This document shows, one piece after another, positions 6,735 through 51,364 of a stretch of 64,000 nucleotides of DNA (position 1 is its first letter; each line of letters begins with the position of its first letter). Location of the stretch: assembly GCA_011835815.1 (NCBI GenBank), contig GCA_011835815.1_3615.1; one strand, 5' to 3'. The notes below the pieces were generated by a model. The model was not told the origin of the DNA. It saw nothing but the letters and a program-made list of their open reading frames with translations, and did no database searches. Made by a program: the position numbers and the translations under genes. Source of the stretch: a phage.

Positions 6735-7154
6735 ATGAACATTAAATCTAATAATCCGGCATATAGCTTTGATAACGCTTTTTGTCACGGTCCGGCGGCG
6801 AAAGGTTTTGAAATTGATGGTAAACTAATTATTGTCAATGTTGACGGGGAAGAGGTTGCAGTATATCCGGTGGCAGACGTAAAAAGCCGTTTGCAATGCC
6901 GCATGGATGTTACCGCCTATCAGCTTGATCCGGTCCGCATAGTTGCCCTGGTCCTGGAAGAAGAAATTAAAGCCATGCACCATAGCAACAGGTTTATTGG
7001 TGACGCACAGGATAATATGAAGGTATGCCGCCATAAAGTTAATGAAGTGCTTAAAGAATATGGCTTTAAAGATCTGATGATCAAACGTGAGGAAAAATTC
7101 CGCTACCGTAACGACCTGGCAAATCGAATCTATGAAATATACGAATCATTATAA
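6735..7154 (+). CDS. hypothetical early protein
   Basis: 139-aa ORF with AGAGG SD; promoter upstream, terminator downstream; last + strand gene before the gene desert. Confidence 0.55.
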   Translation: MNIKSNNPAYSFDNAFCHGPAAKGFEIDGKLIIVNVDGEEVAVYPVADVKSRLQCRMDVTAYQLDPVRIVALVLEEEIKAMHHSNRFIGDAQDNMKVCRHKVNEVLKEYGFKDLMIKREEKFRYRNDLANRIYEIYESL

Positions 7155-7172
7155 TTTCTTAACTAAACTATC

Positions 7173-7202
7173 AGGGGCTTTAAAAGGCCCCTTTCTTTTT
7201 GT
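7173..7202 (+). terminator. rho-independent terminator
   Basis: AGGGGCTTT-AA-AAGGCCCCT hairpin then T-run. Confidence 0.65.
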
Positions 7203-7810
7203 CTGTATTTCTCCTACCACAAACGGCCCAGCCTGGCAAGTGGAATAATTGACTAGCCATCAATCCCACACACTGTACAAACATACATGTAAAATAACTA
7301 TTGCATAATTTTTCATTGTGTGGTAGCAGGTCCATTTTTACCCGTTTTCTCTCTCAAAATTGCACGTAATGCCGCTATTGCACAAAATTTAACCTGATGC
7401 ACATCTTCAATATCTTGTCAACAACTAAAAATCTTTATAAGTCATACACTTACACACTCACAAAAGCGTGTTCTACGTGAAAAATCGAGTATAACTATAG
7501 CCGCCAGATCTCAGAATTTACGTACGCTCACCATTCTATAGTCTGCTAAGTATTTATTCCAACCATGGAATAACGGAATAGTCAATACCTGCATAAAATA
7601 ATTATTCGTGTAAACTGCATAACATAAATCAGCTTATGTGTCAACATTCTTGGTAAACAGTCCGAAATTGTAACGGTAAGTTATAATAAACAGAGAAATC
7701 TTTAGTCGTCTAATGTTTACTGTACATAACTATACTGACTGGAATCATTAGATGACTAAGAGAAAGATAAGAAATAATTAACAATACAATTATTTTATCT
7801 GTAACAATAA

Positions 7811-7984
7811 GGCAACTATGCAAACGAATGGCATGGCGCGACGGAGTCGCGACATAATATAAAAGCAGTAACCATCACCCCCGTGATAGTTTGTCTGCAA
7901 TCTATTAATCAGATCATAGTTGCCTTGTATTCAGTTAATCATGACATAATAAGCAAGGCAACTATAGATCTGCTAATAGTTGCC
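7811..7984. repeat. four copies of GGCAACTAT in alternating orientation, including a perfect 12-bp inverted repeat
   Basis: Copies near 7811(+), 7916(-), 7957(+), 7976(-); ATAGTTGCCTTG...CAAGGCAACTAT arms; also a 19-bp direct repeat TGCAAACGAATG(G/T)CATGGC at about 7819 and 8047. Confidence 0.6.
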
Positions 7985-8075
7985 CTGCTTTTATATTATG
8001 TCATATATTATTAACTTGTTAATTGTTAACTTGCTAATTGTTTTCATGCAAACGAATGTCATGGCTTATCCTATC

Positions 8076-8147
8076 TGTGTAAACAGTTAAGGTGTAAACT
8101 ATCCAGGCGTAAACAGTCTATGCGGGAACAATCTATACGTGAACAGT
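8076..8147. repeat. three copies of GT(A/G)AACAGT at roughly 31-bp spacing
   Basis: GTAAACAGT near 8076 and 8108, GTGAACAGT near 8139; a related GTAAACTA between. Confidence 0.45.
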
Positions 8148-8759
8148 GAAACATGAAATAATAACAGTCGTTATTGTGTCGAAAGTGTATAAGGTGTCAG
8201 ACAAGTTTTTCTCCTCTTTGTCAAGTGCTGCATGAAAAATTTACAATCTGGTATGGTAGCATTTTTGCGGCCCGGTTTACATTCAGTTGTGTATGTATAA
8301 CCCTTGTTGTGTGGGCGTTTAGACGTCTGGACGGTCAGAAGTCCGCAGGTTAATATCTAATCTATTGGCTGCTAACTATATCCCACACAAATAGTAAGAA
8401 ATATAATTGTTATGTGCGTAAACGGTAACTCATGTTATCAATCCCTGTATGTATCGCCAGTGGTGCGCATAATAGGTATTATGTTAAATTGCCAGTAATG
8501 ATAACTATTCTCACAATGATAGGTATTCTCATTCACTCCCACAAGATAGGTTGCAAATGTTGTGCCACTGTGTGAACGGCCTCACCTATTAATTTGCCTC
8601 ACTGCCTCGATATTTGAGAATTGTTATAAGAATGAGAAGTATTCCCATTTCGTCCGCCTGGCAGCACTCCAGTCGCTACCGGCTCCTGACAGGGAGGCAC
8701 TCCTGTTGGTCAGGTCAAAATCGGGGTAGAACTGGGCCTGTTCAGATATTTCTGGCTGA

Positions 8760-9947
8760 CTCTTCAGGTCTGTGTGGGAAAAGCCAACCTCTCCGGCGGC
8801 GGGGAGGGGGTCAATTAAAAAATTTACGGGGTATATGAAGCGCTCTTCAGGTAAGGCATGTACTATGGGATGAGACCCTCTTCAGGCAATGATATTTGTG
8901 GGTGTGATATTTGCTGGAAAGCCAGATATGACGGGACTCCCGGCGGGGCAGGGGTAGTACAGACAGGGAAAATATGGGGATGTAGTTGGGTGAATTGATC
9001 GGGCAGGTAGAGTATGGAATATGTTACAAGTATGTTAAATATGGAGGGTGAATATCTGCAGGATTTGTGTGTAAAATCAAAGACTTAAGTAGTGTTGTGG
9101 TATTTTCTATAAATAATTCAAGTTTAATAGGTAATATTTGTCTCTATCCACTTTGTGTGGTAAACAAATTCAAATGAGATTGGTTTACAAGTGTATACAT
9201 AATATACAAATTAAAGATACAAGAAACCCCCCTCCCCCTTCGGCTACCATTCACCTTTTCCTCTGACTGGTACTTAAACACTTATTCAGACTCTTCAGGT
9301 TATCACCCATATACCATATGGCAGTGACTGGTGTCCTCCGGCCCCTCTTTCGTCACCCGTCCGCTTCGCCATGCTAATGCCATAGCTAATGGTTCGGTTG
9401 TTCACCCTGTTCACTCAGGTGTATCTCTATACCCCTTCAAACCGAAGAGAACAGAAAACCCGAATTACTCGGTAAAAGAAAAGAGAAGAACTTAATTTTA
9501 TCAGGATAGGCAAGAATGTCAAGGCATGACTGCTCACTAAACAAGCAAACAGTCATGTGTGGGAGGTAAGTGATTGTGGTGGTAGGAAATTTAGTTGAAA
9601 GATGTGTTATAGGTGCTTCCAGCACTTTAGCCTGGCAGCTAATTGTGTGTCAGTCCAGCGGTTCATCCTCTACTTCACTGAAATCAATGTTCATGGTCTC
9701 TTCCCAACCATCGATCTCAGCACAAGAGTGGAGTTCTTTAGGGTTTACTCCCAAAGCCTCAGCAACAGAGTCTATATTTAACACCCCTGGCAGGTATGAT
9801 TCATCGAATTCAAGGTAAATCAGGCCACGAGTGTTGTCAGCTCCACCAAATATCTCTATCTTCATAAAATCTCCTCTGGGAATGAAAGTGTGAACAGGGT
9901 TTTATACGTTCTAATGCACAGGAATTATACACGTTTGCCTCTTCAGG
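8760..9947. repeat. dispersed 9-mer CTCTTCAGG (5 copies)
   Basis: Exact copies near 8760, 8843, 8877, 9291 and 9939, all same orientation, all in non-coding DNA. Confidence 0.5.
9650..9865 (-). CDS. small highly acidic protein
   Basis: 71 aa, rich in D/E; most promoter-distal gene of the - strand block. Confidence 0.5.
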   Translation of the reverse strand: MKIEIFGGADNTRGLIYLEFDESYLPGVLNIDSVAEALGVNPKELHSCAEIDGWEETMNIDFSEVEDEPLD

Positions 9948-24748: not shown

Positions 24749-25222
24749 CTAGTCTACCTGAACCCAACCGCCTGATACTTTTTTAAACATTCTTTGGTTA
24801 TCACTGCCTCGGAACGGTTTCTTGGTTGGTAAATCTTTTACATACTTACCGTCAATGATGATATCAGCCAGTTTAAGAACATCACTAGAGATATGGTCAA
24901 ATGTGAACCCAGTATATACAAGAATAGTTTTCTTGTCACCAAATTTTTCCTTAATTTTCTCCATCAGGCTAATAATATCTGGCTCATTATAGTATGCTAA
25001 GGGTTCTCCACCCAGCAGAGAGATACCGCACACAGACGGGTTATCTAAATCTGACAAGATTTTTTGCAAGTCTTCTTCAGTAAACTCTCTCCCCTTATCT
25101 TTTGACCAAAATGCCTGATTAAAGCAACCAGGGCAAGCGTGTGGGCACCCAGATACCCATAAGGCAGTTCTAATACCTGGCCCTTCGGTGTAAGATATTT
25201 CTGTGTATCCGGCAATATTCAT
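24749..25222 (-). CDS. nrdG: anaerobic ribonucleotide reductase activating protein (radical SAM)
   Basis: 157 aa; GCPHACPGCFN radical-SAM cysteine motif; adjacent to nrdD. Confidence 0.8.
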   Translation of the reverse strand: MNIAGYTEISYTEGPGIRTALWVSGCPHACPGCFNQAFWSKDKGREFTEEDLQKILSDLDNPSVCGISLLGGEPLAYYNEPDIISLMEKIKEKFGDKKTILVYTGFTFDHISSDVLKLADIIIDGKYVKDLPTKKPFRGSDNQRMFKKVSGGWVQVD

Positions 25223-25335
25223 AGATACTCCGCATCACATTTAGGGCAATGCCAAATAAAATCGTCCAGTGCCTTGCACCAACGAAGATTGCAACGACAA
25301 CCACACTTGCAAATTTTATAAATACCTGTAGACAT
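25219..25335 (-). CDS. small Cys-rich peptide (38 aa, 7 Cys), putative zinc-binding
   Basis: Hand-translated MSTGIYKICKCGCRCNLRWCKALDDFIWHCPKCDAEYL; perfect AGGAGG SD; stop overlaps nrdG start (ATGA); lies between nrdD and nrdG. Confidence 0.5.
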   Translation of the reverse strand: MSTGIYKICKCGCRCNLRWCKALDDFIWHCPKCDAEYL

Positions 25336-25398
25336 ACTGTACCTCCTAGCTCACTGTGTGTCAATAATATGCCACATCCTTGTGGCTTTTGTCAAGTA

Positions 25399-27522
25399 TC
25401 AGCAACCACAACTTCCGTAGTGCTTAACCCGTTCTATAACTTCCGCTTGCTTACCTTTATTGTAAGGACGGGAGTTTGGACTAGACAGGTACCCGGATAC
25501 ACGTCTGATCACACTGATCGTTCCCTCTTCATGGTTTCCACACTCTGGGCATACAAAGCCTTTAGCTGTTGCACTAAACTCACCAGAGAAACCACACTTG
25601 AGACATTTATCCACAGGTTGGTTAATACCAAAATACATAATGTGTTTATACCCGAAGTCAACAAGAGCCTCTAAAGCATCCAGGTTGTTTTTCAGATTTG
25701 GTGTCTCTACGTATCCGATGTTGCCACCAGAGGAGATCATAGCAAAACCTTCTTCATACTTCCACTTATCAAAAGGAGAGCTATTGATCCATACTGGCTG
25801 ATGGAAACTGTTGGTGAGATATTCATGCTCGTGCTTCAACACTTCAGGATATTCACGATCCAGACAGGTTGCAGCTTTATAGCATAGGCTCTCAGAAGGG
25901 GTGCCGTACAAGCTAAATGCTAGTCTACTTTCCTTCTTGTATCGCTCACAAGCATCTCTCATGTGCTGAAGGATTCCAAGAGCTAAAGCCTTGTCACCCT
26001 CTCTGCCCAAAATCTGACAGGTTTCATACACACCAATATACCCAATACTGATGGAAGCGTACCCGTCATAGAAGAGTTTATCAATACTCTCTTCAGGATC
26101 CAGGCGAGCAAGAGCGCCTTCACACCACATGATAGGGTTCTGCCCTGCCTTGGTGCCTTTCAGACGGTTAACCCTTACAAGGTGAGCCTCGTATGCAAGA
26201 TCCAGATACTCGTCAAGAACGGCAAAGAAATCAACACCTTCCGTCTTAGCTTTTGCCGCAATCATTGGCAGGTTAAGACTAACAACACCCAAGTTGAATC
26301 TGCCTAGGTATTTCTCCTCGCCTGTTTCCAAGTCATTGTATTTGCTAAGAAAACTCCGGCAACCCATGCTCGTTACTTTACCATCTGTCGAGCCTGTCAC
26401 TTTACGATTTAGTGGAACAGAAACAAAGTCAGGATAAATCCGCTCTGCAGAGCATTCCAGAGCTAATCGTTTCAAATCATAGTTAGGATCTCCAGGGTTC
26501 ATGTTGACACCCTCTTCTAGGAAGAACAGCACTTTAGGGAACACAGGTGTGATACGTTCTTCACCAAGACCCATTTTGTGGACTTTCAAGTAATTTTTGG
26601 TAATCATTCTACCAAAGACCGAGGTATCCAGTCCTAAACTTAATGTGATGAATGGAGTTTGCCCGTTGACAGAAGTTAACGTATTGATTTGATAGAGCAA
26701 AGTCTGCATGCTGTCAAATACGTCTTTATCTGTCATTTGCATTGCAACAGTCTCAGCATCTGGCAACCAATGTTCCTGGCAAAATTTAAGGTTCTTCTCA
26801 TAGGTCGCTTCAGCATACTGTGCCAGATAATGATCAATATGGCTCATAGTCTGACCACCATATTGAGCACTAGCTACTGCACTAGAGATTTGGCTAAGGA
26901 TTGTTGTTGCAACCCCTATTGACTTCGGCTTACTGACATGGGCGTTACCAATGTTGAATCCGTTTTCCAACATATCTGGATAATTTACCAAACAACAGTT
27001 TGTTAACGGACTGATCAAGTAGTCAAGATCATGCACATGGATGAAGCCTCTATTGTGCTCTTCTGAGACACGGTCTGGCAGGATCTGTGTTGATGCAAGG
27101 TGTTTGCTAAGGATGCCTGCAAGCAGGTCACGATGAGTGTGTACATGATTGGTAGGCTTATTTGCGTTTTCTTTTGTAAATTCATCACAAGTGCGATCCA
27201 AGAAGCCACTAATATCTGCAAGCAGTTTTCCACCTGCCTCTCTATTATTATCTCTTGTCTGCCTATACTGGATGTATTCTCTGGCTGCACATTTTAAACC
27301 CATATCCATAAGAGCGTCTTCAACAAGGATATGGATATTTTTTACAGAGATCGTGCACTGGTCGGTTGGTAGAGTGTTAGCAACAACTTCATTAACCGCG
27401 CAGGCGATCCGGTAAGCTTCTTCTTCAGTATGTCCAGACTCAAGTAAGGCGGACTCTGCCGCCTTGATCACCTTAATTCCGTTATATACCTCTTCTCTAC
27501 CGTCCCGTTTTACAACTTTCAC
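25399..27522 (-). CDS. nrdD: anaerobic (class III) ribonucleoside-triphosphate reductase
   Basis: 707 aa; C-terminal glycyl-radical region (RRVSGYL) and C-terminal Cys-rich motif CLKCG...CPECG. Confidence 0.85.
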   Translation of the reverse strand: MKVVKRDGREEVYNGIKVIKAAESALLESGHTEEEAYRIACAVNEVVANTLPTDQCTISVKNIHILVEDALMDMGLKCAAREYIQYRQTRDNNREAGGKLLADISGFLDRTCDEFTKENANKPTNHVHTHRDLLAGILSKHLASTQILPDRVSEEHNRGFIHVHDLDYLISPLTNCCLVNYPDMLENGFNIGNAHVSKPKSIGVATTILSQISSAVASAQYGGQTMSHIDHYLAQYAEATYEKNLKFCQEHWLPDAETVAMQMTDKDVFDSMQTLLYQINTLTSVNGQTPFITLSLGLDTSVFGRMITKNYLKVHKMGLGEERITPVFPKVLFFLEEGVNMNPGDPNYDLKRLALECSAERIYPDFVSVPLNRKVTGSTDGKVTSMGCRSFLSKYNDLETGEEKYLGRFNLGVVSLNLPMIAAKAKTEGVDFFAVLDEYLDLAYEAHLVRVNRLKGTKAGQNPIMWCEGALARLDPEESIDKLFYDGYASISIGYIGVYETCQILGREGDKALALGILQHMRDACERYKKESRLAFSLYGTPSESLCYKAATCLDREYPEVLKHEHEYLTNSFHQPVWINSSPFDKWKYEEGFAMISSGGNIGYVETPNLKNNLDALEALVDFGYKHIMYFGINQPVDKCLKCGFSGEFSATAKGFVCPECGNHEEGTISVIRRVSGYLSSPNSRPYNKGKQAEVIERVKHYGSCGC

Positions 27523-41724: not shown

Positions 41725-43008
41725 TCATTCCAGAACCTCCCAAGTGTCTGGGTTAACATTTCGGACGCAGATACCGACAGGGAATTGGTAGTTGTTGTCT
41801 TCTGTCCTTGCTTGATATTTGAAGGTGACAAACTTGCCGATCATTTCCTGCATCCTGTCATAGCTACGCTCCTCGTGCGTGCCTTTCATCTTCATTTTAA
41901 CAACAACACCTTCCTTGTCAACACAGATAAGAACACCTTCATCATTCTTATCTTTCTCAACGTCAATAACTTTCACCTCTGCGTCGTTGAACTTTTTCCA
42001 TTTCAATGCTTCAGATGTTCGCTGACCATACTCATATTTACCACAGAAGTTACGCATAATGGTACCTTCATATCCCTCAGACATAAATATACCAACAGAC
42101 TCTTCGCACCGATCAACTGTGTATGCAATCTCTGCATCAACAACCTTAATATGATCAAGCATCAAAGAAGCAATAGCACCATTTGCCTCCATAAGATCCT
42201 TACAGCGTCCAGACTCTGTTTCAGGATCCCACCACACCTTATCGCTAGGAATATCGAAAATATGATACTCTAAGTCGTAGCTGCAGTACCCTCCGTAACG
42301 CAAATCATCACGAACAGGCTCAACATCAACAGGAATGTCCATCTTGTTGAAGTTTTTGTATGTTGCTAAACCTGCTTTAATCGCAGCCTGACGGCGTTTT
42401 TTATCTGCCTTGTAGTCTTTATCGATCTCGGCCTGAATTTCTTCCTGTGTGCGCCACCGTTTAGCAAGAGACACTATTTTCTGCAGAGGCAGACCATGAA
42501 TATAGAGCTCTCCGTCGAGCTGTTTAATCCCGGTGGTTAGGTGGAAAGAGCGAAGTTGCTCCAGAAGCTTCCCTTGAATAGGGTAGGACTTATTACCACG
42601 GGAAATAAATTTAGGCTCACCATTCTGGAAAACAACAAGTAGACGAAGGCCATCTAACTTACGCAAGATCCAGCAAGGTAATTTAAGTGCCTTGCCACGC
42701 TTCAGGTAGTCATGCACCAACATGGGTAAAAGATCAACACCTTGCTCACAATCTTCCATACTCTCCACGTACCCGAGTCGGACCTGTTTTTCCCACTTAC
42801 TGATCGCTTCCAGCTCGGCCTGTTGCTCAGCTGTAGTTTCATTAGCGCGACCCACGTTCTTAGGTGTGCAGATCGTCTCTTTGTATTGCAGTTTACCATC
42901 AAGCTTGCCAAACTCTACGATAACCTTATCACCATCCGTGAATACTTTCCACTGTTGGTGGCTGCCATCTTTGTTCAGTGCGTACAGTGTTGTTTTGATC
43001 TGATGCAT
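41725..43008 (-). CDS. DNA ligase (nucleotidyltransferase superfamily)
   Basis: 427 aa; KxDG motif I (RKLDGLR), motif III (LDGELYIHG), motif IV (YEGTIMRN); cofactor not determined. Confidence 0.7.
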   Translation of the reverse strand: MHQIKTTLYALNKDGSHQQWKVFTDGDKVIVEFGKLDGKLQYKETICTPKNVGRANETTAEQQAELEAISKWEKQVRLGYVESMEDCEQGVDLLPMLVHDYLKRGKALKLPCWILRKLDGLRLLVVFQNGEPKFISRGNKSYPIQGKLLEQLRSFHLTTGIKQLDGELYIHGLPLQKIVSLAKRWRTQEEIQAEIDKDYKADKKRRQAAIKAGLATYKNFNKMDIPVDVEPVRDDLRYGGYCSYDLEYHIFDIPSDKVWWDPETESGRCKDLMEANGAIASLMLDHIKVVDAEIAYTVDRCEESVGIFMSEGYEGTIMRNFCGKYEYGQRTSEALKWKKFNDAEVKVIDVEKDKNDEGVLICVDKEGVVVKMKMKGTHEERSYDRMQEMIGKFVTFKYQARTEDNNYQFPVGICVRNVNPDTWEVLE

Positions 43009-43599: not shown

Positions 43600-43628
43600 A
43601 TAATAAGTAAAGCCGGGTAATCCCGGCT
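43600..43628 (-). terminator. rho-independent terminator (- strand)
   Basis: AGCCGGG-TAAT-CCCGGCT hairpin downstream of 43635-44348. Confidence 0.5.
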
Positions 43629-43634
43629 ATGTTG

Positions 43635-44348
43635 TTAAATATACTCTGTTACATCCTTGAAGCTCGAAGGCTTCATGATCTTACCTTTACTGTCAAGGAA
43701 TATAATAACTTTATTGCCGTTGTAGAACTCCTCTTTAGCAACGAAACCTTCGTAGCGACCACCAAAACGACGCTCAAGATCTTTAATCTCCAACTCGATG
43801 AGTTGTTCAGCAGGCATATCTGCACTGGCACCGTGTGAATGCCGTAGATGGTTGATCCGTGCAAACTTACTGTCATTAGATTTTAGAACCTTCCGCATCA
43901 TCCCACACACATCCCCGCTAAGCTGGAACAGCAAAGCTGTTGATAACTCCGCTAGTCGGTAAGCTGACGCTCTTTGCTTGGATGTGTTTTTCGCAGCGAT
44001 CAGTGTATCATAGAACTCACCGATCTTGAACTTAAGACCTCGCGGATTATCAAACAGGTTTGACCACTTTTCGTGGTTATCATTAACAAGATAAGCTGCA
44101 TAACTTGTGACAACGTGAAGATCGCAGGCCTCTTTTAGCAGGTGATCTCCACCATCACCTTTCTCCAGCTCTTCCAAAACCTCATTGAACTCTTCCTCAA
44201 TGAAGCTAAGCTGTAATTCGAATGGTGTGTATGATTTTTTCACTTTAGCTGCCACACGGTTCCAGTTTTCCACCCAGTTGGCAGACCAAAGGTAGTTTTC
44301 AGGCTGGGACAGTTTTTCCAGGTTGTCGATCAGTTTAGTATTCAGCAT
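43635..44348 (-). CDS. hypothetical protein, possibly MazG-like NTP pyrophosphohydrolase
   Basis: 237 aa; acidic cluster FIEEEFNEVLEELEKGD is reminiscent of MazG; weak. Confidence 0.3.
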   Translation of the reverse strand: MLNTKLIDNLEKLSQPENYLWSANWVENWNRVAAKVKKSYTPFELQLSFIEEEFNEVLEELEKGDGGDHLLKEACDLHVVTSYAAYLVNDNHEKWSNLFDNPRGLKFKIGEFYDTLIAAKNTSKQRASAYRLAELSTALLFQLSGDVCGMMRKVLKSNDSKFARINHLRHSHGASADMPAEQLIELEIKDLERRFGGRYEGFVAKEEFYNGNKVIIFLDSKGKIMKPSSFKDVTEYI

Positions 44349-44361
44349 TAAAGGTCTCCTT

Positions 44362-45123
44362 TTAAAGTTCCATAAAGTTTTCTACAGTTTCAATAAATGC
44401 TTTATCAGAGAAAGCGTCAACAGCACCGTTAAACCATACAGGGATCCCGCGATCCTCATATTGATAAAGGTCGCTACGTGGAATGCCACTTCCATCTGCA
44501 CTCTGCGAATCATACTTGTTTACAATCAGCAGTTTTGTGCCTTTACAAGTAGCAGGAAACAATTCCCAGTTAAAATTAATAACTGTGTTAGAACAACCTA
44601 CCAGGATCACCATATCATTGCTTGTGAGAGATGTCAACAGGTCATACATGTCTGTATACTTAGGAGCAACCTCACCGAAGAACACTACATTGGGCTTAAC
44701 CCAGGTATACTTGCCTGTATCTACCTCCGTGTATCCGATATTTTTAATTACATCATTACCTTCAGCATCTTCGTAGGTGATTTCAGGCAAATACCCGTGG
44801 ACATGTAAAATATCTTCATGTTTTACACCAGCACGCTCCAGCAAATCATCTACATTGGTAGTAAGGTTGATCACACGACCAGACCAGCGGGAATACCACT
44901 CAGAGATCCGAAGATGTGCAAGGTTAGGATCAACACTGCCCAGAGCTACACGACGTGCATTGTAAAAGTCATGCACCTTATAGTAGTTCTTGGCAAAGGT
45001 GTGGATGTTGCACACCTCATCGATGCTGAAATTCTCCCACATTGCAGTGCTACCAGATCGGAAAGTGGGAATACCAGATTCAGCGCTCAAACCAGCACCG
45101 GAGATAATAATCAGTCGTCGCAT
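44362..45123 (-). CDS. Sir2-family (sirtuin-like) NAD-dependent protein
   Basis: 253 aa; N-terminal IIISGAGLSAESGIPTFRS matches the Sir2 GAG(I/V)S...GIP.FR NAD-binding signature. Confidence 0.75.
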   Translation of the reverse strand: MRRLIIISGAGLSAESGIPTFRSGSTAMWENFSIDEVCNIHTFAKNYYKVHDFYNARRVALGSVDPNLAHLRISEWYSRWSGRVINLTTNVDDLLERAGVKHEDILHVHGYLPEITYEDAEGNDVIKNIGYTEVDTGKYTWVKPNVVFFGEVAPKYTDMYDLLTSLTSNDMVILVGCSNTVINFNWELFPATCKGTKLLIVNKYDSQSADGSGIPRSDLYQYEDRGIPVWFNGAVDAFSDKAFIETVENFMEL

Positions 45124-45131
45124 AAGTGTCC

Positions 45132-45512
45132 TCAGTAGATGTTTTGTTTAATCTCTATTCCAAACTTCTTGAATGAGTCAGCAGCAAGCATAAATTTACG
45201 AGCTGCCGATGGATTAGAAGTATGCACGAAAATAATCACGTTGTCAATAAGTGGTGGCTTTCCGAATACAAGTTTCTCCTCTAGCGCAGAGAAGCAGTCG
45301 TACCCTTCAAGCACTTCACCTAGATCATTGTCAAAATGCCACTCAGAAACGCGCCTGTAGAGCTTTCTATTATCGTTAATAAAATCCATGAACTCAGAAG
45401 AGTTCTTCAGCCAAAGAGCATCTTGGATTCCGTAATTTGACGGATCTCTCAAGTCATCTAGCCACACAATCAACTTCTTCATTGCATATAGTCCTCGTTG
45501 TGAAAATAGCAA
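45132..45512 (-). CDS. hypothetical protein
   Basis: 126-aa ORF directly upstream of the Sir2-like gene. Confidence 0.5.
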   Translation of the reverse strand: MLFSQRGLYAMKKLIVWLDDLRDPSNYGIQDALWLKNSSEFMDFINDNRKLYRRVSEWHFDNDLGEVLEGYDCFSALEEKLVFGKPPLIDNVIIFVHTSNPSAARKFMLAADSFKKFGIEIKQNIY

Positions 45513-46414
45513 TCAAGTATCTCACGGCGTTCCTGCTCCAGGAGGCAGTTCCACACATCTTCTGTGTAATTGCTACGAATGAAGTTTACCATGCCATAAA
45601 ACTCTTCGTCAATACGTTTAAAGATATCATCATCCCAAATCTTCCAAGCTTTACCCCTCATTACGGCCTTCCGTGCCAAATAGTATGGAGACTTGATCTT
45701 CAGCTGCAGGTCATAAGGGTAGTAAGGCTTACGGATCATATACCCTTCGCCCCTTGTTTCTGCAGCTAATTCTTTTGCATAGCTGAACGGGATTTCACGC
45801 ACAGTGTGAGGACGTTTTGCACCAAGGTATTTGGCAATCCCATCTAAAGCTGCTTCTGGTAGCATTATTCCAGAATCATTATATCTGCAACCTATCAAAT
45901 ATGCGCCATGGTCTTCTTGAACAATATGCGGATCTGAAGGGTGACAAATTTCAAACATGAATGTCATGTTTTCATTGCCCATAACCTTCTTGATAAGATC
46001 TAAATTACCACATTGCTCTTGGATGGTTTCCTTTGCAAGGTTACAATATGGAGAATCAAGAGACCCGGTTGTTGAGAACAATAGGTCACCTTTATGAGAT
46101 GATACCACACCAAGGAATCCGTTCTTTTTCTCTACCGCAGTCACAAGCTTATTGTCAGGCAGGTTGGTGGAGTTTTCTCCCAAGTTAAACACTTTTGTGA
46201 AGGGCCATGCCACAACATTTCCTTCATTACCTACAACAATGCCTCGGCACTCCAGTAAACGAGGGGACAAATGCCATAAATTGTTGTAAAATACTTTTCT
46301 AGCATATTTATAGATCTTTAACCCGAGATCTGGGTAATACCTACTGGTTACAAGACCTTTGTCAACTAGGTCGTCTGCATTAAAATACTTCATCATACGT
46401 TCCTCATTTGTCAT
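45479..46414 (-). CDS. RNA ligase, T4 Rnl1 (RnlA) family
   Basis: 311 aa; LECRGIVVGN, KVFNLGEN, AVEKKNGFLGVVS (KxxG lysine motif), FMFEICHPSDPHIV and GYMIRKP...LKIKSPYY are collinear with T4 RnlA blocks as I recall them. Confidence 0.8.
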   Translation of the reverse strand: MTNEERMMKYFNADDLVDKGLVTSRYYPDLGLKIYKYARKVFYNNLWHLSPRLLECRGIVVGNEGNVVAWPFTKVFNLGENSTNLPDNKLVTAVEKKNGFLGVVSSHKGDLLFSTTGSLDSPYCNLAKETIQEQCGNLDLIKKVMGNENMTFMFEICHPSDPHIVQEDHGAYLIGCRYNDSGIMLPEAALDGIAKYLGAKRPHTVREIPFSYAKELAAETRGEGYMIRKPYYPYDLQLKIKSPYYLARKAVMRGKAWKIWDDDIFKRIDEEFYGMVNFIRSNYTEDVWNCLLEQERREILDCYFHNEDYMQ

Positions 46415-46514
46415 TTTGTCAGTCTATCCTGCCACACAAATAACCTAGTGTCAACACTTGAAATTAACAAAACAGTTAGATATACTATCGTTGAAATTAA
46501 AACGGAGGGTCACT

Positions 46515-46925
46515 ATGTCTAAAATGCTATATATCGTGCGTGGTCTACCAGGGTCTGGCAAATCAACACTGGCAAATGCGCTATCTTTAGAGGGTCTGTA
46601 TCCACATTTTGAGAACGACATGTTCTGGTATGACGATGACGGCAATTACAACTGGGATGCAAGTAAAGTAACACTCGCAGCGAAATGGTGCAAAGATAAC
46701 GTAGAAGATATGATGCGTATGGGATACGACCGTATCGTGGTAAGTAATACGTTTACAAAAGAAAAACATGTGCAGGAATATGTTGACATGGCAATCAGTC
46801 ATGGGTATAGTTATACCGTGATCGTGGTTGAAAACCGCCACGGTAATAAAAGCATTCATGATGTTCCAGACAGGGTTGTGGATCGTATGGAACGCCAGCT
46901 TAAAAACTGCATTAAACTTAAATGA
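46515..46925 (+). CDS. P-loop kinase, candidate polynucleotide 5'-kinase
   Basis: ATG at 46515 with GGAGGG SD (track ORF starts 46458); MLYIVRGLPGSGKSTLA Walker A; divergent from the RNA ligase. Confidence 0.6.
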   Translation: MSKMLYIVRGLPGSGKSTLANALSLEGLYPHFENDMFWYDDDGNYNWDASKVTLAAKWCKDNVEDMMRMGYDRIVVSNTFTKEKHVQEYVDMAISHGYSYTVIVVENRHGNKSIHDVPDRVVDRMERQLKNCIKLK

Positions 46926-46932
46926 GGAATGT

Positions 46933-47487
46933 ATGAAATACTTTGTAACAAGCGACACACACTTTCTCCACCAGCGGGTCATGGAGTTCGATTCATGTCA
47001 AAAACACAGATCTCAGTATGATCACAATCTTGACAGTATGAATGCGGGAATCATCACCAAGTGGAACTCTGTTGTGTCACCTGCAGACACTGTGTTTCAC
47101 TTGGGAGATATTGCGTGCACTAATGATAAGAATATCAACAAATTGCTCCCAGATATTCTAAATATGTTGAACGGACATATTATTCTTGTTCGTGGTAACC
47201 ATGACACAAGGACGACTGTCAGAATTATGAAAGAGTTCGGTCATGAGGTTGTAGATTATTACGAGCTTCGCCACAACAAGAATTTGATCTGTATGAGCCA
47301 TTACCAGTTTGCAAAGTGGAACAGAAAGCCTCACGGATCAGTCCAACTGTTCGGTCATGCTCACGGAACCACACAGCAGTTGTTTGGCAGGCAGTTTGAT
47401 GTCGGTTGGGATGTGTGGGGGAGACTCTTACCATTAGAAGAGGCATACCGTATTGCAATGAGTCTTGCTATTGACAGCGGGGAGTAA
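46933..47487 (+). CDS. calcineurin-like metallophosphoesterase, candidate 2',3'-phosphatase
   Basis: ATG at 46933 with GAGGA SD; VTSDTHF, GDIACTN and VRGNHD metallophosphatase motifs. Confidence 0.65.
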   Translation: MKYFVTSDTHFLHQRVMEFDSCQKHRSQYDHNLDSMNAGIITKWNSVVSPADTVFHLGDIACTNDKNINKLLPDILNMLNGHIILVRGNHDTRTTVRIMKEFGHEVVDYYELRHNKNLICMSHYQFAKWNRKPHGSVQLFGHAHGTTQQLFGRQFDVGWDVWGRLLPLEEAYRIAMSLAIDSGE

Positions 47488-50424: not shown

Positions 50425-50499
50425 GCCCTGTTAGCTTAGTGGATAAAGCAGCGGCCTTCTAAGCCGTTGACACTGGTTCGAGTCCAGTACGGGGTGCCA
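50425..50499 (+). tRNA. tRNA-Arg (anticodon UCU)
   Basis: Hand-folded cloverleaf: acceptor GCCCTGT/ACGGGGT, anticodon loop CTTCTAA, T-loop GGTTCGAGTCC, encoded CCA. Confidence 0.75.
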
Positions 50500-50629
50500 A
50501 GTTCTTTTTAATGTAGCTTACTTTAGCAGAGTAAATCTTCGGCAAGTGGCGGTAACCACTTTACCGATACCTCATAGTTAGTGGTGAGAACACTAGCTAT
50601 TTTAAAAAGAATTTAAATATTAGTATTTA

Positions 50630-50717
50630 GGTGAGTTAATTCCGTAGGGGTAGCGGGGCAGACTGTAAATCTGTTATCATTGCGATTCGGGTGGTTCGAC
50701 TCCATCACTCACCACCA
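50630..50717 (+). tRNA. tRNA-Tyr (anticodon GUA), class II
   Basis: Acceptor GGTGAGT/ACTCACC, anticodon arm GCAGA-CTGTAAA-TCTGT, long variable arm, T-loop GGTTCGACTCC, CCA; D-arm register uncertain. Confidence 0.65.
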
Positions 50718-50821
50718 AATTTATATTTTTAAATGCATAAATCATACAGATAATGGCATTGATATTTATCGTCGTTTATACTAGTCACTAACTGCTCGAA
50801 AATCAGTGTCATTATCAGTAT

Positions 50822-50912
50822 AATTTATAAAGGAGGGTAGGGAGCAATGGTGCTCAAGCGGTCTTGAAAACCGCCCCGTTGAGGATGACTCGATGATGGT
50901 TCGATTCCATTA
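50822..50912 (+). tRNA. tRNA-Ser (anticodon UGA), class II
   Basis: Acceptor GGAGGGT/ACTCTCC, anticodon arm GCGGT-CTTGAAA-ACCGC, long variable arm, T-loop GGTTCGATTCC, CCA. Confidence 0.65.
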
Positions 50913-51020
50913 CTCTCCGCCACATTGTTGACCTTGTAATTAAGCGAAAGCCGGAAGCAGAACCGGATTATCAAATGTTACAGTCGTCATCGCCGACTAG
51001 CAACATGGTCAACATACTGA

Positions 51021-51119
51021 GCTAGGTAAGCCCTTTGGCAAGGGCGAGGATTTTTAATCCTGAAAATAGACGAGGTAGTCGTTGAATACATAGGTGGTTC
51101 GATTCCATCGCCTAGCACC
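51021..51119 (+). tRNA. atypical tRNA-like gene (about 97 nt), anticodon possibly UUU (Lys)
   Basis: Perfect acceptor GCTAGGT/GCCTAGC, D-arm GCCC-TTTGGCAA-GGGC, anticodon-like hairpin GAGGA-TTTTTAA-TCCTG, canonical T-arm; but about 30 nt inserted between anticodon stem and T-stem. Confidence 0.4.
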
Positions 51120-51124
51120 TTTTT

Positions 51125-51200
51125 GCTGATGTAGCACAATCGGTAGTGCAATTGATTTGTAATCAATAGGTTGTAGGTTCAAGTCCTGCCATCAGCACCA
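51125..51200 (+). tRNA. tRNA-Thr (anticodon UGU)
   Basis: Acceptor GCTGATG/CATCAGC, D-stem GCAC/GTGC, anticodon arm ATTGA-TTTGTAA-TCAAT, T-loop GGTTCAAGTCC, CCA. Confidence 0.75.
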
Positions 51201-51201
51201 A

Positions 51202-51276
51202 GGCCCTGTAGCTGGAAGGTTCAAGCAAGCGACTCATAATCGCCAGACGGTGGTTCAATTCCACCCAGGGCCACCA
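51202..51276 (+). tRNA. tRNA-Met or Ile2 (anticodon CAU)
   Basis: Acceptor GGCCCTG/CAGGGCC, anticodon loop CTCATAA, T-loop GGTTCAATTCC, CCA; not initiator-like. Confidence 0.7.
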
Positions 51277-51287
51277 AATAGTAAATA

Positions 51288-51364
51288 CTCCGCGTAGCTC
51301 AGCTTGGTAGAGCGCCTGATTTGGGATCAGGAGGTCGAGTGTTCGAATCACTCCGTGGAGACCA
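51288..51364 (+). tRNA. tRNA-Pro (anticodon UGG)
   Basis: Acceptor CTCCGCG/CGTGGAG, D-stem GCTC/GAGC, anticodon arm CCTGA-TTTGGGA-TCAGG, T-loop GTTCGAATC, CCA. Confidence 0.75.

What the first reader, a model, noticed from the sequence alone, without database searches (positions are those of the whole stretch)
44362..45512. Sir2-like NAD-dependent protein with a tightly linked upstream partner gene
The N-terminus carries the sirtuin NAD-binding signature (GAGLSAESGIPTFR). Sir2 domains act as protein deacylases, ADP-ribosyltransferases or NADases, and bacterial Sir2 NADases are defense effectors. A phage-encoded Sir2 may modify host proteins or manipulate NAD metabolism. The adjacent 126-aa ORF is only 8 nt upstream and may be a functional partner.
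Basis: partly seen in the sequence, partly recalled or inferred. Interest (0 to 1): 0.5.

Follow-up and report, generated by a model that had tools for sequence, protein, structure and literature searches.

The report
Phage sirtuin inside an RNA-repair operon
This is a real, intact sirtuin gene of an rV5-like E. coli phage, sitting in a four-gene operon with RNA-repair enzymes; the gene and its neighbourhood were already described in 2022, but its biochemical activity has never been tested.

Summary
Window 44362-45123 (-) encodes a 253-aa SIR2-family protein (Pfam 8.8e-28) with the GAGLSAESGIPTFR motif and a catalytic His109. The gene 8 nt upstream is real, but it most likely starts at ATG 45482 (116 aa, not 126). 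It is a cREC "cyclic-phosphate processing receiver" protein.

The window is a Vequintavirus, 99.8% identical to phage AlexBoehm, where the gene is already annotated as a sirtuin. Sir2 lies in a compact operon: Rnl1-like RNA ligase, cREC, Sir2, MazG-like protein, then a hairpin. A polynucleotide-kinase-like gene and a metallophosphoesterase are transcribed divergently next to it.

Iyer et al. 2022 (PMC9503650) described exactly this neighbourhood for phages V5 and Mydo. They proposed that the sirtuin removes RNA 2'-phosphates, as KptA/Tpt1 does.

New here:
- The clade derives from class III (CobB/SIRT5-like) sirtuins and keeps the Tyr/Arg pair.
- It has lost the zinc-binding cysteines and always has Thr for the Gln of TQNID.
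- Distant members sit next to other RNA-repair or ADP-ribose-processing genes (Rnl2-type ligase, RlaP, PTH2, NADAR).
- It does not resemble defence-type Sir2 NADases.

No experiment exists. An RNA-repair role is the best-supported reading (about 0.4), and a plain protein deacylase is the main rival. Ordinary in novelty, moderate in interest.

The parts
44362..45123 (-). Sir2 (sirtuin) gene, 253 aa. Key residues: GAGLSAESGIPTFR at 9-22; Tyr54/Arg57 (the class III pair); TTNVDD at 88-93; catalytic His109; FFGE at 148-151; GCSNTVINF at 176-184; Asn202. There are no zinc-binding cysteines between His109 and Pro144.
45129..45133 (-). GAGGA Shine-Dalgarno-like motif for Sir2. It overlaps the cREC stop codon and lies 5 nt before the Sir2 ATG.
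   Evidence: read directly from the sequence
45132..45482 (-). Partner gene: a cREC (cyclic-phosphate processing receiver) domain protein, 116 aa from ATG 45482. Conserved residues: D9, D10, R12, P14, D51, D53, H87, T88, S89, N90, P91, K96.
45479..46414 (-). Rnl1-family (T4 RnlA-like) RNA ligase and first gene of the operon. Motif I KKNG starts at residue 96. The start codon is ambiguous (46414, 46396 or 46393). Its stop overlaps the cREC ATG (ATGA).
43635..44348 (-). MazG-like nucleotide pyrophosphohydrolase candidate, 237 aa, with an EFNEVLEE acidic motif at residue 53. It starts 13 nt downstream of Sir2 and is the last gene of the operon.
   Evidence: PHROG 671 at 1.9e-21. No Pfam or PDB sequence hit. 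Called MazG superfamily in PMC9503650.
43611..43628 (-). Terminator-like hairpin (7-bp stem, 6 G-C pairs, followed by a T-rich tail) immediately after the MazG-like stop codon.
   Evidence: a consensus scan only
46515..46925 (+). Divergently transcribed P-loop kinase, 136 aa, Walker A motif GLPGSGKS. Annotated as polynucleotide kinase in phage AlexBoehm.
46933..47487 (+). Calcineurin-like metallophosphoesterase, 184 aa, with the DxH, GD, GNHD and GHxH motifs present.
41725..43008 (-). ATP-dependent DNA ligase, downstream on the same strand. In Mydovirus-like phages its start overlaps the Sir2 stop.
50425..51364 (+). Phage tRNA gene cluster about 3 kb beyond the kinase/phosphoesterase genes. 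Context only.

Best explanation
The gene encodes an active NAD+-consuming sirtuin that evolved from class III (CobB/SIRT5-type) enzymes. It works as one component of a phage RNA-break (probably tRNA) repair module.

Shown:
- Operon anatomy: Rnl1-like ligase, cREC, Sir2, MazG-like, then a hairpin, with a kinase and a metallophosphoesterase transcribed divergently.
- An intact sirtuin catalytic set.
- Remodelling on the substrate side that is specific to the clade.
- Recurrent linkage to RNA-repair genes.

Inferred mechanism:
1. [quoted passage not shown]
2. The kinase phosphorylates the 5' end.
3. cREC and/or the metallophosphoesterase opens the cyclic phosphate.
4. The ligase seals the break.
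5. The sirtuin uses NAD+ to take off a residual 2'-phosphate. The phosphate oxygen attacks C1'' of NAD+ and nicotinamide leaves. His109 then activates the ribose 2''-OH, releasing ADP-ribose 1'',2''-cyclic phosphate. This parallels KptA/Tpt1 and also the sirtuin's own deacylation chemistry.
6. cREC (cyclic phosphodiesterase) and the MazG-like pyrophosphatase clear that by-product.

The general RNA-repair role is more likely than the specific 2'-phosphotransferase step.
For: - Catalytic residues are invariant in 120 homologues: G9-A-G11, S16, F21, R22, N90, D92, H109, FFGE, N202. dN/dS is 0.107.
- The operon is compact. Gaps are -4, 8 and 13 nt, with a hairpin after the last gene.
- Every partner keeps its catalytic motifs.
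- The same gene set is found in Vequintavirus and Mydovirus-like phages with a different gene order.
- Independent lineages pair the same Zn-less sirtuin clade with other RNA-repair genes:
  - HAD_SAK_2 'Swiss-army-knife RNA repair' phosphatase in about 28 T5-like loci.
  - Metallophos, DNA ligase, a faint AAA_33 kinase hit, and an Rnl2-type ligase (PF09414, a weak hit) in place of Rnl1.
  - RlaP.
  - PTH2 peptidyl-tRNA hydrolase, overlapping the Sir2 stop.
- Other members sit near ADP-ribose or NAD genes: NADAR, an ADP-ribosylglycohydrolase and NAMPT.
- phi92-like phages keep Sir2 and the cREC/MPE/ligase/MazG cluster in the same genome although they lie about 32 kb apart.
- KptA homologues occur in 98 phage records, none named as an Escherichia or Salmonella phage. 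Sir2 occurs in 976 records, 660 of them from those two hosts.
- The substrate side of the enzyme is remodelled across the clade: no Zn cysteines, Q to T in TQNID, and GTSxxVYPA replaced by GCSNxVINF.
- Iyer et al. 2022 reached the same reading from neighbourhoods.
Against: - There is no biochemical or genetic evidence anywhere in the searched literature.
- The T4-type kinase plus phosphoesterase plus Rnl1 route needs no 2'-phosphate removal.
- The E. coli host already has kptA.
- The clade is uniformly acidic (pI 4.6-6.1, median 5.1) and shows no new invariant basic patch. That is not what one expects of an RNA-binding enzyme.
- It retains the Tyr/Arg pair, which in SIRT5/CobB binds succinyl or malonyl carboxylates. 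This fits a protein deacylase equally well.
- Many clade members have no recognisable RNA-repair neighbour: phi92-like, KVP40-like, several jumbo and bacterial chromosomal loci.
- Vequintavirus, Mydovirus and phi92-like phages are related, so their shared neighbourhood is partly inherited synteny within an early 'nucleic-acid metabolism' region.
- The metallophosphoesterases next to distant members are not the same subfamily as the window's.
Confidence: 0.4

Rival explanations
1. It is an ordinary protein lysine deacylase (a CobB/SIRT5-like deacetylase or desuccinylase) acting on host or phage proteins during infection. One example would be reactivating enzymes whose lysines are acylated, including lysine-dependent ligases. 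In this reading the position next to RNA-repair genes reflects only a shared early-gene region.
For: - The closest sequence and structure relatives are E. coli CobB, Sir2Af1 and SIRT5.
- The full deacylase catalytic set is present.
- The class III Tyr54/Arg57 pair is invariant.
- The acidic pI is like CobB's.
- Many clade members lack RNA-repair neighbours.
- In Mydovirus-like phages the gene overlaps a DNA ligase gene.
Against: - Scores against all NCBIfam CobB/deacylase models are far below their cut-offs (best 120.5 bits against 243).
- The zinc module that forms half of the peptide cleft has lost its cysteines.
- The VYPA loop and the Gln of TQNID are replaced throughout the clade.
- RNA-repair and ADP-ribose-processing neighbours recur in unrelated lineages.
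Confidence: 0.3
2. It is an ADP-ribosyltransferase, or a producer of a small ADP-ribose derivative. The target would be a protein, an RNA end or a small molecule other than an RNA 2'-phosphate. cREC, MazG or the metallophosphoesterase would act as eraser or clean-up enzymes, in the manner of the sirtuin-macrodomain pairs.
For: - The gene is tightly coupled to cREC, which is predicted to process cyclic phosphates of ADP-ribose derivatives.
- NADAR, ADP-ribosylglycohydrolase and superfamily-level Metallophos neighbours occur in distant members.
- The literature reports Nudix-cREC fusions next to this sirtuin clade in jumbo phages.
Against: - There is no macrodomain partner.
- The protein is not similar to class M ADP-ribosylating sirtuins but to class III.
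- No target can be named.
Confidence: 0.12
3. It is an NAD+ glycohydrolase that manipulates the host NAD+ pool, or interferes with NAD+-dependent host defence. This is the defence-effector analogy raised by the first reader.
For: Sir2 domains can be NADases. The catalytic Asn and His are present.
Against: - There is no match to any PADLOC defence Sir2 model.
- There is no sensor or partner domain typical of those systems.
- The phage would be depleting a cofactor it needs, and no NAD+ salvage genes are annotated in this part of the genome.
- The nearest relatives are transferases/deacylases.
Confidence: 0.06

Closest known systems
The 'RNA-repair' phage sirtuin clade, neighbourhood type 2 (Escherichia phage V5 / Proteus phage Mydo), of Iyer, Burroughs, Anantharaman & Aravind 2022 (Viruses 14:1977, PMC9503650)
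   Same: The gene content is identical: sirtuin, T4-like RNA ligase, cREC, nucleotide kinase, MazG-superfamily pyrophosphatase and calcineurin-like phosphoesterase. The window is a Vequintavirus, the genus of phage V5.
   Different: Nothing differs in kind. Added here: the operon boundaries, the corrected start of the partner gene, the sequence signature of the clade (Zn-less, Q to T, retained Tyr/Arg), bacterial chromosomal members, and further neighbours (Rnl2-type ligase, RlaP, PTH2, NADAR).
E. coli CobB / human SIRT5 (class III sirtuin protein deacylases)
   Same: They are the best sequence and fold matches (1s5p at 8.6e-21; Foldseek E 1e-19, TM 0.75-0.85). They share the NAD-binding motifs, the catalytic His and the Tyr/Arg acyl-carboxylate pair.
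   Different: Identity is only about 25%. Scores fall below every NCBIfam CobB cut-off. The four zinc cysteines are absent. Thr replaces the Gln of TQNID. GCSNxVINF replaces GTSxxVYPA. There is an extra, poorly predicted insert at residues 205-211.
KptA/Tpt1 RNA 2'-phosphotransferase
   Same: This is a proposed functional analogy only. Both are NAD+-dependent, both begin with attack on C1'' and loss of nicotinamide, and both are linked to RNA ligase, kinase and cyclic-phosphodiesterase genes. Among named phages their distributions appear complementary.
   Different: The folds are unrelated (ADP-ribosyltransferase versus Rossmann sirtuin). No activity has been shown for the sirtuin.
Defence-associated Sir2 NADases (ThsA, DSR1/2, Sir2-HerA, Sir2-pAgo)
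   Same: They share the Sir2 domain and the catalytic Asn and His.
   Different: There is no PADLOC hit, no sensor or partner domains, and the gene is carried by a virulent phage. Its nearest relatives are class III deacylases.
Clostridium thermocellum Pnkp/Hen1 and T4 Pnkp/Rnl1 RNA healing-and-sealing systems
   Same: All combine a kinase, a 3'-end phosphoesterase and an RNA ligase. The metallophosphoesterase type is that of CthPnkp, whose H189D mutant yields only 2'-NMP from 2',3'-cyclic nucleotides.
   Different: Here the activities are on separate small proteins, and the module also carries cREC, Sir2 and MazG, which those systems lack.

Membership tests
SIR2/sirtuin superfamily (Pfam PF02146) | Profile match above the curated threshold | tested here: met
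   97.9 bits against a cut-off of 24, E 8.8e-28, covering profile positions 1-178 of 180
SIR2/sirtuin superfamily (Pfam PF02146) | Rossmann NAD-binding motif GAGxS...SGIPxFR, Asn and Asp of the (T)QNxD motif, and the catalytic His | tested here: met
   G9-A10-G11, S16, F21, R22, N90, D92 and H109 are invariant or nearly so in 120 homologues
SIR2/sirtuin superfamily (Pfam PF02146) | Sirtuin fold | tested here: met
   AF2 model with pLDDT 88.8. Foldseek finds CobB, Sir2Af1 and SIRT5 at E 1e-19 to 1e-15, TM 0.7-0.85
SIR2/sirtuin superfamily (Pfam PF02146) | Four-cysteine zinc ribbon in the small domain | tested here: not met
   The query has 0 Cys between His109 and Pro144. Among 120 homologues, 70 have 0, 48 have 1 and 2 have 2, against 4-5 in CobB, SIRT5 and Sir2Tm. 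The beta-strands are still predicted with high confidence
SIR2/sirtuin superfamily (Pfam PF02146) | Gln of the TQNxD motif | tested here: not met
   Thr89 in all 120 close homologues. Among 141 family representatives, a non-Gln residue goes with loss of the Zn cysteines (43/14 against 8/76)
Class III sirtuin deacylases (CobB/SIRT5 equivalogs) | Tyr/Arg pair that binds acidic acyl groups | tested here: met
   Y54 and R57 align with CobB Y92/R95 and SIRT5 Y102/R105 and are invariant. The residue numbering of the reference proteins is from my own knowledge.
Class III sirtuin deacylases (CobB/SIRT5 equivalogs) | Score above the NCBIfam equivalog/subfamily cut-offs | tested here: not met
   Best is NF001753 at 120.5 bits against a cut-off of 243. 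CobB NF040867 scores 102 against 320
Class III sirtuin deacylases (CobB/SIRT5 equivalogs) | NAD+-dependent lysine deacylase activity | not testable with these tools
   No experimental report was found
Phage RNA-repair sirtuin neighbourhood type 2 (Iyer et al. 2022) | Sirtuin linked to a T4-like RNA ligase, cREC, nucleotide kinase, MazG and optionally a calcineurin-like phosphoesterase | tested here: met
   All six lie within window 43635-47487. The definition is quoted.
KptA/Tpt1 RNA 2'-phosphotransferases | Homology to the Tpt1 ADP-ribosyltransferase fold | tested here: not met
   The only Pfam family found is SIR2 and the fold is sirtuin. Any relation is by analogy only.
KptA/Tpt1 RNA 2'-phosphotransferases | NAD+-dependent removal of an RNA 2'-phosphate, giving ADP-ribose 1'',2''-cyclic phosphate | not testable with these tools
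   This needs an enzyme assay or tpt1-delta complementation.
Defence-associated Sir2 NADases | Match to defence Sir2 profiles and presence of sensor or partner genes (SLOG, HerA, pAgo, DSR N-terminal domains) | tested here: not met
   No PADLOC hit at E<=0.01 for Sir2 or its three operon neighbours. The neighbours are RNA-repair enzymes.
cREC domain (Pfam PF20274), for the partner gene | Profile match above threshold, a receiver (CheY-like) fold, conserved acidic active-site residues, and no histidine kinase | tested here: met
cREC domain (Pfam PF20274), for the partner gene | Cyclic phosphodiesterase activity | not testable with these tools

The most novel reading that the evidence does not exclude
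The phage sirtuin is a nucleic-acid-directed enzyme. It would be the first sirtuin shown to act on RNA, either removing 2'-phosphates in the manner of Tpt1 or reversing another RNA-end or aminoacyl-tRNA modification. cREC would be its dedicated cyclic-phosphate clean-up partner. Together they would give about 2% of sequenced phages an NAD+-dependent branch of tRNA repair against host anticodon nucleases.
Probability: 0.3. Interest if true: 0.75.

Novelty: already known. Interest (0 to 1): 0.35.

Why it matters
This sirtuin clade is present in 976 of 50,697 phage records. Those records include the T5-like, rV5-like, Mydovirus and phi92-like phages that are widely used as models and for therapy. 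Even so, its activity has never been measured.

If the 2022 prediction is right, the sirtuin fold would gain a new catalytic activity on RNA. Phage tRNA repair would then be more elaborate than the T4 Pnkp/Rnl1 paradigm and would depend on NAD+. That would tie it to the NAD+-centred arms race between phages and bacteria.

If the protein is simply a deacylase, it would be a case of a virulent phage rewriting the host acyl-proteome.

Either result is reachable with standard assays. The phage is a BASEL-collection relative, so it is genetically tractable.

Tried and rejected
- PADLOC scan of Sir2, cREC, ligase and MazG-like: no hits. The defence-effector reading was dropped.
- PDB sequence searches for the ligase and the MazG-like protein: nothing. 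For the kinase: only noise. For the phosphoesterase: only Aquifex aq_1665 of unknown function.
- Pfam on Sir2 neighbours in phi92-like, KVP40-like and several jumbo or other loci gave nothing relevant to RNA repair: topoisomerase II, a deoxyribosyltransferase-like protein, AdoMet decarboxylase, a cupin. I could not reproduce the published jumbo-phage configuration (2H / Nudix-cREC / PIN) with the loci I fetched.
- HMMs built from the window's partners did not detect the Metallophos genes next to distant Sir2 members. The Sir2-phosphoesterase pairing therefore holds only at superfamily level.
- The promoter scan was not clearly above its shuffles (23 found against 15.6 +/- 4.0) and was not used. 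Only the hairpin after the MazG-like gene is cited, as a consensus match.
- Literature searches for experiments on phage sirtuins, cREC or Vequintavirus RNA repair found none. The NARP3 paper concerns bacterial Sir2-HerA, not this gene.
- The idea that the Zn-less clade is confined to phages was rejected. P0183 lies in a bacterial chromosomal context and a Neptunomonas protein belongs to the clade.
Full report
**What is there**

The window is part of an rV5-like E. coli myovirus (genus Vequintavirus). Window 43600-46500 is 99.8% identical to Escherichia phage AlexBoehm (Bas56) and matches 121 phage records at 90% identity or more. In AlexBoehm the gene is already annotated 'sirtuin domain NAD-dependent deacetylase' (bas56_0207), and its upstream neighbour is 'hypothetical protein' (bas56_0208).

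The ORF 44362..45123 (-) encodes 253 aa beginning MRRLIIISGAGLSAESGIPTFR. It matches:
- Pfam SIR2 at 8.8e-28.
- PHROG 2162 at 1e-107.
- E. coli CobB (1s5p) at 8.6e-21, and SIRT5, among solved structures.

A GAGGA motif overlaps its stop codon. Its real start is almost certainly ATG 45482 (116 aa). All homologues are 63-121 aa and start there. GenBank uses that start. It also forms an ATGA overlap with the preceding gene.

**The partner and the operon**

The partner is a cREC ('cyclic-phosphate processing receiver') domain protein.
- Pfam PF20274 matches at 4.3e-14.
- The AF2 model has pLDDT 93.
- The receiver-like acidic residues D9/D10 and D51/D53, plus T88 and K96, are conserved. So are the family-specific R12, H87 and N90.

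Four genes on the minus strand form a compact unit:

| Order | Gene | Coordinates | Gap to next |
|---|---|---|---|
| 1 | Rnl1-family RNA ligase | 46414..45479 | -4 nt (overlap) |
| 2 | cREC | 45482..45132 | 8 nt |
| 3 | Sir2 | 45123..44362 | 13 nt |
| 4 | MazG-like protein | 44348..43635 | G+C-rich hairpin at 43628..43611 |

A P-loop kinase (46515-46925, annotated as polynucleotide kinase) and a calcineurin-like metallophosphoesterase (46933-47487) are transcribed divergently. An ATP-dependent DNA ligase lies downstream, and a phage tRNA cluster lies about 3 kb beyond the kinase and phosphoesterase genes.

The catalytic motifs of the ligase (KKNG), the kinase (GLPGSGKS), the phosphoesterase (DxH, GD, GNHD, GHxH) and the MazG-like protein (EFNEVLEE) are present. 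Against a Vequintavirus contig whose Sir2 is 89% identical, dN/dS is 0.107 for Sir2, 0.057 for cREC, 0.065 for MazG-like and 0.039 for the ligase. All four are maintained by selection.

**What kind of sirtuin**

Among 120 close homologues, all from phage-sized contigs, these residues are invariant or nearly so: the NAD-binding residues, Asn90, Asp92, His109, FFGE and Asn202.

The Tyr/Arg pair that defines class III sirtuins is also invariant. Tyr54 and Arg57 align with CobB Y92/R95 and SIRT5 Y102/R105. The AF2 model (pLDDT 88.8) superposes best on CobB, Sir2Af1 and SIRT5.

The clade departs from canonical sirtuins in three ways:
- The four zinc cysteines are gone. The query has none, and homologues have 0-2 against 4-5 in the reference enzymes.
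- The Gln of TQNID is always Thr.
- GTSxxVYPA is replaced by GCSNxVINF.

Scores against every NCBIfam CobB/deacylase model are far below cut-off. No defence-system Sir2 model matches.

In a search of 1.8 billion cluster representatives, loss of the Gln and loss of the cysteines go together:

| | Few Cys | Many Cys |
|---|---|---|
| non-Gln | 43 | 14 |
| Gln | 8 | 76 |

The odds ratio is 29. The counts are not corrected for phylogeny. This defines a wider 'Zn-less' subfamily that also has bacterial chromosomal members. The 2022 paper does not mention these sequence features.

**Context elsewhere**

The clade occurs in 976 of 50,697 phage records: Vequintavirinae, T5-like, Mydovirus-like, phi92-like, phage 7-11, KVP40-like and jumbo phages. 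This cREC subfamily occurs in 343 records.

| Phage group or locus | Arrangement around Sir2 |
|---|---|
| Mydovirus-like | Phosphoesterase ... ligase - cREC - kinase - Sir2 - DNA ligase ... MazG |
| phi92-like | cREC / phosphoesterase / (ligase / kinase) / DNA ligase / MazG cluster lacks Sir2, which sits about 32 kb away in the same genome |
| T5-like (about 28 loci) | Sir2 followed by HAD_SAK_2 'Swiss-army-knife RNA repair' phosphatase (4e-20) |
| Distant Zn-less member | Metallophos, DNA ligase and an Rnl2-type RNA ligase (weak hit) instead of Rnl1 |
| Distant Zn-less members | RlaP |
| Distant Zn-less member | NADAR |
| Distant Zn-less member | NAMPT |
| Distant Zn-less member | ADP-ribosylglycohydrolase |
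| Distant Zn-less member | PTH2 peptidyl-tRNA hydrolase overlapping the Sir2 stop |
| Bacterial chromosome | Metallophos gene next to Sir2 |

Other members have no informative neighbours. The distant Metallophos genes are not the window's subfamily.

KptA homologues occur in 98 phage records, none named as an Escherichia or Salmonella phage.

**Prior knowledge**

Iyer, Burroughs, Anantharaman and Aravind (2022, PMC9503650, section 3.7.3) describe a distinct phage sirtuin clade in three neighbourhood types. [quoted passage not shown] It has a T4-like tRNA ligase, cREC, a nucleotide kinase, MazG and sometimes a calcineurin-like phosphoesterase, which is exactly this locus.

They propose that the sirtuin acts like KptA, removing 2'-phosphates. 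In their scheme the associated enzymes either open the cyclic phosphate or process the ADP-ribose cyclic phosphate by-product. cREC was defined in their 2021 jumbo-phage paper. I found no experimental test in the searchable literature.

**Mechanism and rivals**

The best-supported reading is an NAD+-consuming enzyme that works within phage RNA-break repair (confidence about 0.4).

The specific Tpt1-like step is chemically plausible. A phosphate oxygen could replace the acyl oxygen in the attack on C1''. His109 would then activate the 2''-OH, as it does in deacylation. This step is inference only.

Points against the RNA-repair reading:
- A kinase plus phosphoesterase plus Rnl1 route needs no 2'-phosphate removal.
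- E. coli has its own kptA.
- The clade is acidic, with median pI 5.1.
- The retained Tyr/Arg pair fits a desuccinylase-type protein deacylase just as well.
- Part of the neighbourhood conservation is inherited synteny among related phages.

Rivals:
- Plain protein deacylase, about 0.3.
- ADP-ribosyltransferase or producer of an ADP-ribose derivative, with cREC/MazG as clean-up, about 0.12.
- NADase, about 0.06. This one lacks support from profile matches and from context.

**Verdict**

The feature is already known, both as an annotation and as a published computational prediction. The increments here are:
- the operon anatomy;
- the Zn-less / Gln-to-Thr / retained Tyr-Arg signature;
- the bacterial members of the clade;
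- the additional RNA-repair and ADP-ribose-related neighbours.

Interest is moderate (0.35). The biochemical function of a sirtuin carried by about 2% of sequenced phages is still untested, and it can be resolved with simple assays.

Noticed in passing
window ~7150-9300: An ORF-poor stretch of about 2.1 kb (no ORF of 75 aa or more) between two gene blocks. It is AT-rich (GC 0.33-0.37 at 7100-8300) and has short 15-nt tandem units at 8007-8147. The matching stretch of phage AlexBoehm (90469-92994) has no annotated feature. It could be an origin or a regulatory region.
   Followed up: partly
window 50425-51364: In the tRNA cluster, ARAGORN and Rfam disagree. ARAGORN calls a 91-nt tRNA-Ser (50832-50922) and a 99-nt tRNA with a 4-base anticodon (51021-51119), and neither reaches the Rfam tRNA threshold. 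Rfam finds an extra weak tRNA at 50630-50714 (39 bits). GenBank lists Tyr, Lys and Ile tRNAs for AlexBoehm here. The window appears about 128 nt longer than AlexBoehm in this stretch.
   Followed up: no
GenBank records MG065635, MG065653, MG065644 (hits H17, H18, H26, H28): Records named 'Campylobacter phage' C12, C14 and A147 are 97-99% identical to E. coli Vequintaviruses across this locus. There are 18-25 such records in all. The host label looks doubtful.
   Followed up: no
P0176-P0324 (family representatives): Across sirtuin representatives related to the query, replacement of the Gln of TQNxD and loss of the four zinc cysteines go together (43/14 against 8/76, odds ratio 29, not corrected for phylogeny). 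This suggests a distinct Zn-less sirtuin subfamily that reaches beyond phages.
   Followed up: partly
L097-L099 (8001-9659): A Zn-less member 51% identical to the query lies in a bacterial chromosomal context (TRAP transporter, molybdopterin oxidoreductase, MotAB). A Metallophos gene follows it directly. A Neptunomonas phycophila protein (WP_421834971.1) also belongs to the clade.
   Followed up: partly
L105 6001-7100; L106 4917-7181: In one phage contig the Sir2 stop overlaps the start of a PTH2 peptidyl-tRNA hydrolase gene. In a T4-like contig the gene order is RlaP - Sir2 - NADAR. Both are further links to tRNA or to ADP-ribose processing.
   Followed up: no
L022, L025, L030, L057 (around 6777): In Mydovirus-like phages the Sir2 stop codon overlaps the start of the ATP-dependent DNA ligase gene. 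Sir2 is therefore translationally coupled to a DNA ligase there, not to MazG.
   Followed up: no
window ~25141-27308: The class III anaerobic ribonucleotide reductase gene of AlexBoehm is annotated as joined from two pieces. This suggests an intron or an inserted element in nrdD.
   Followed up: no
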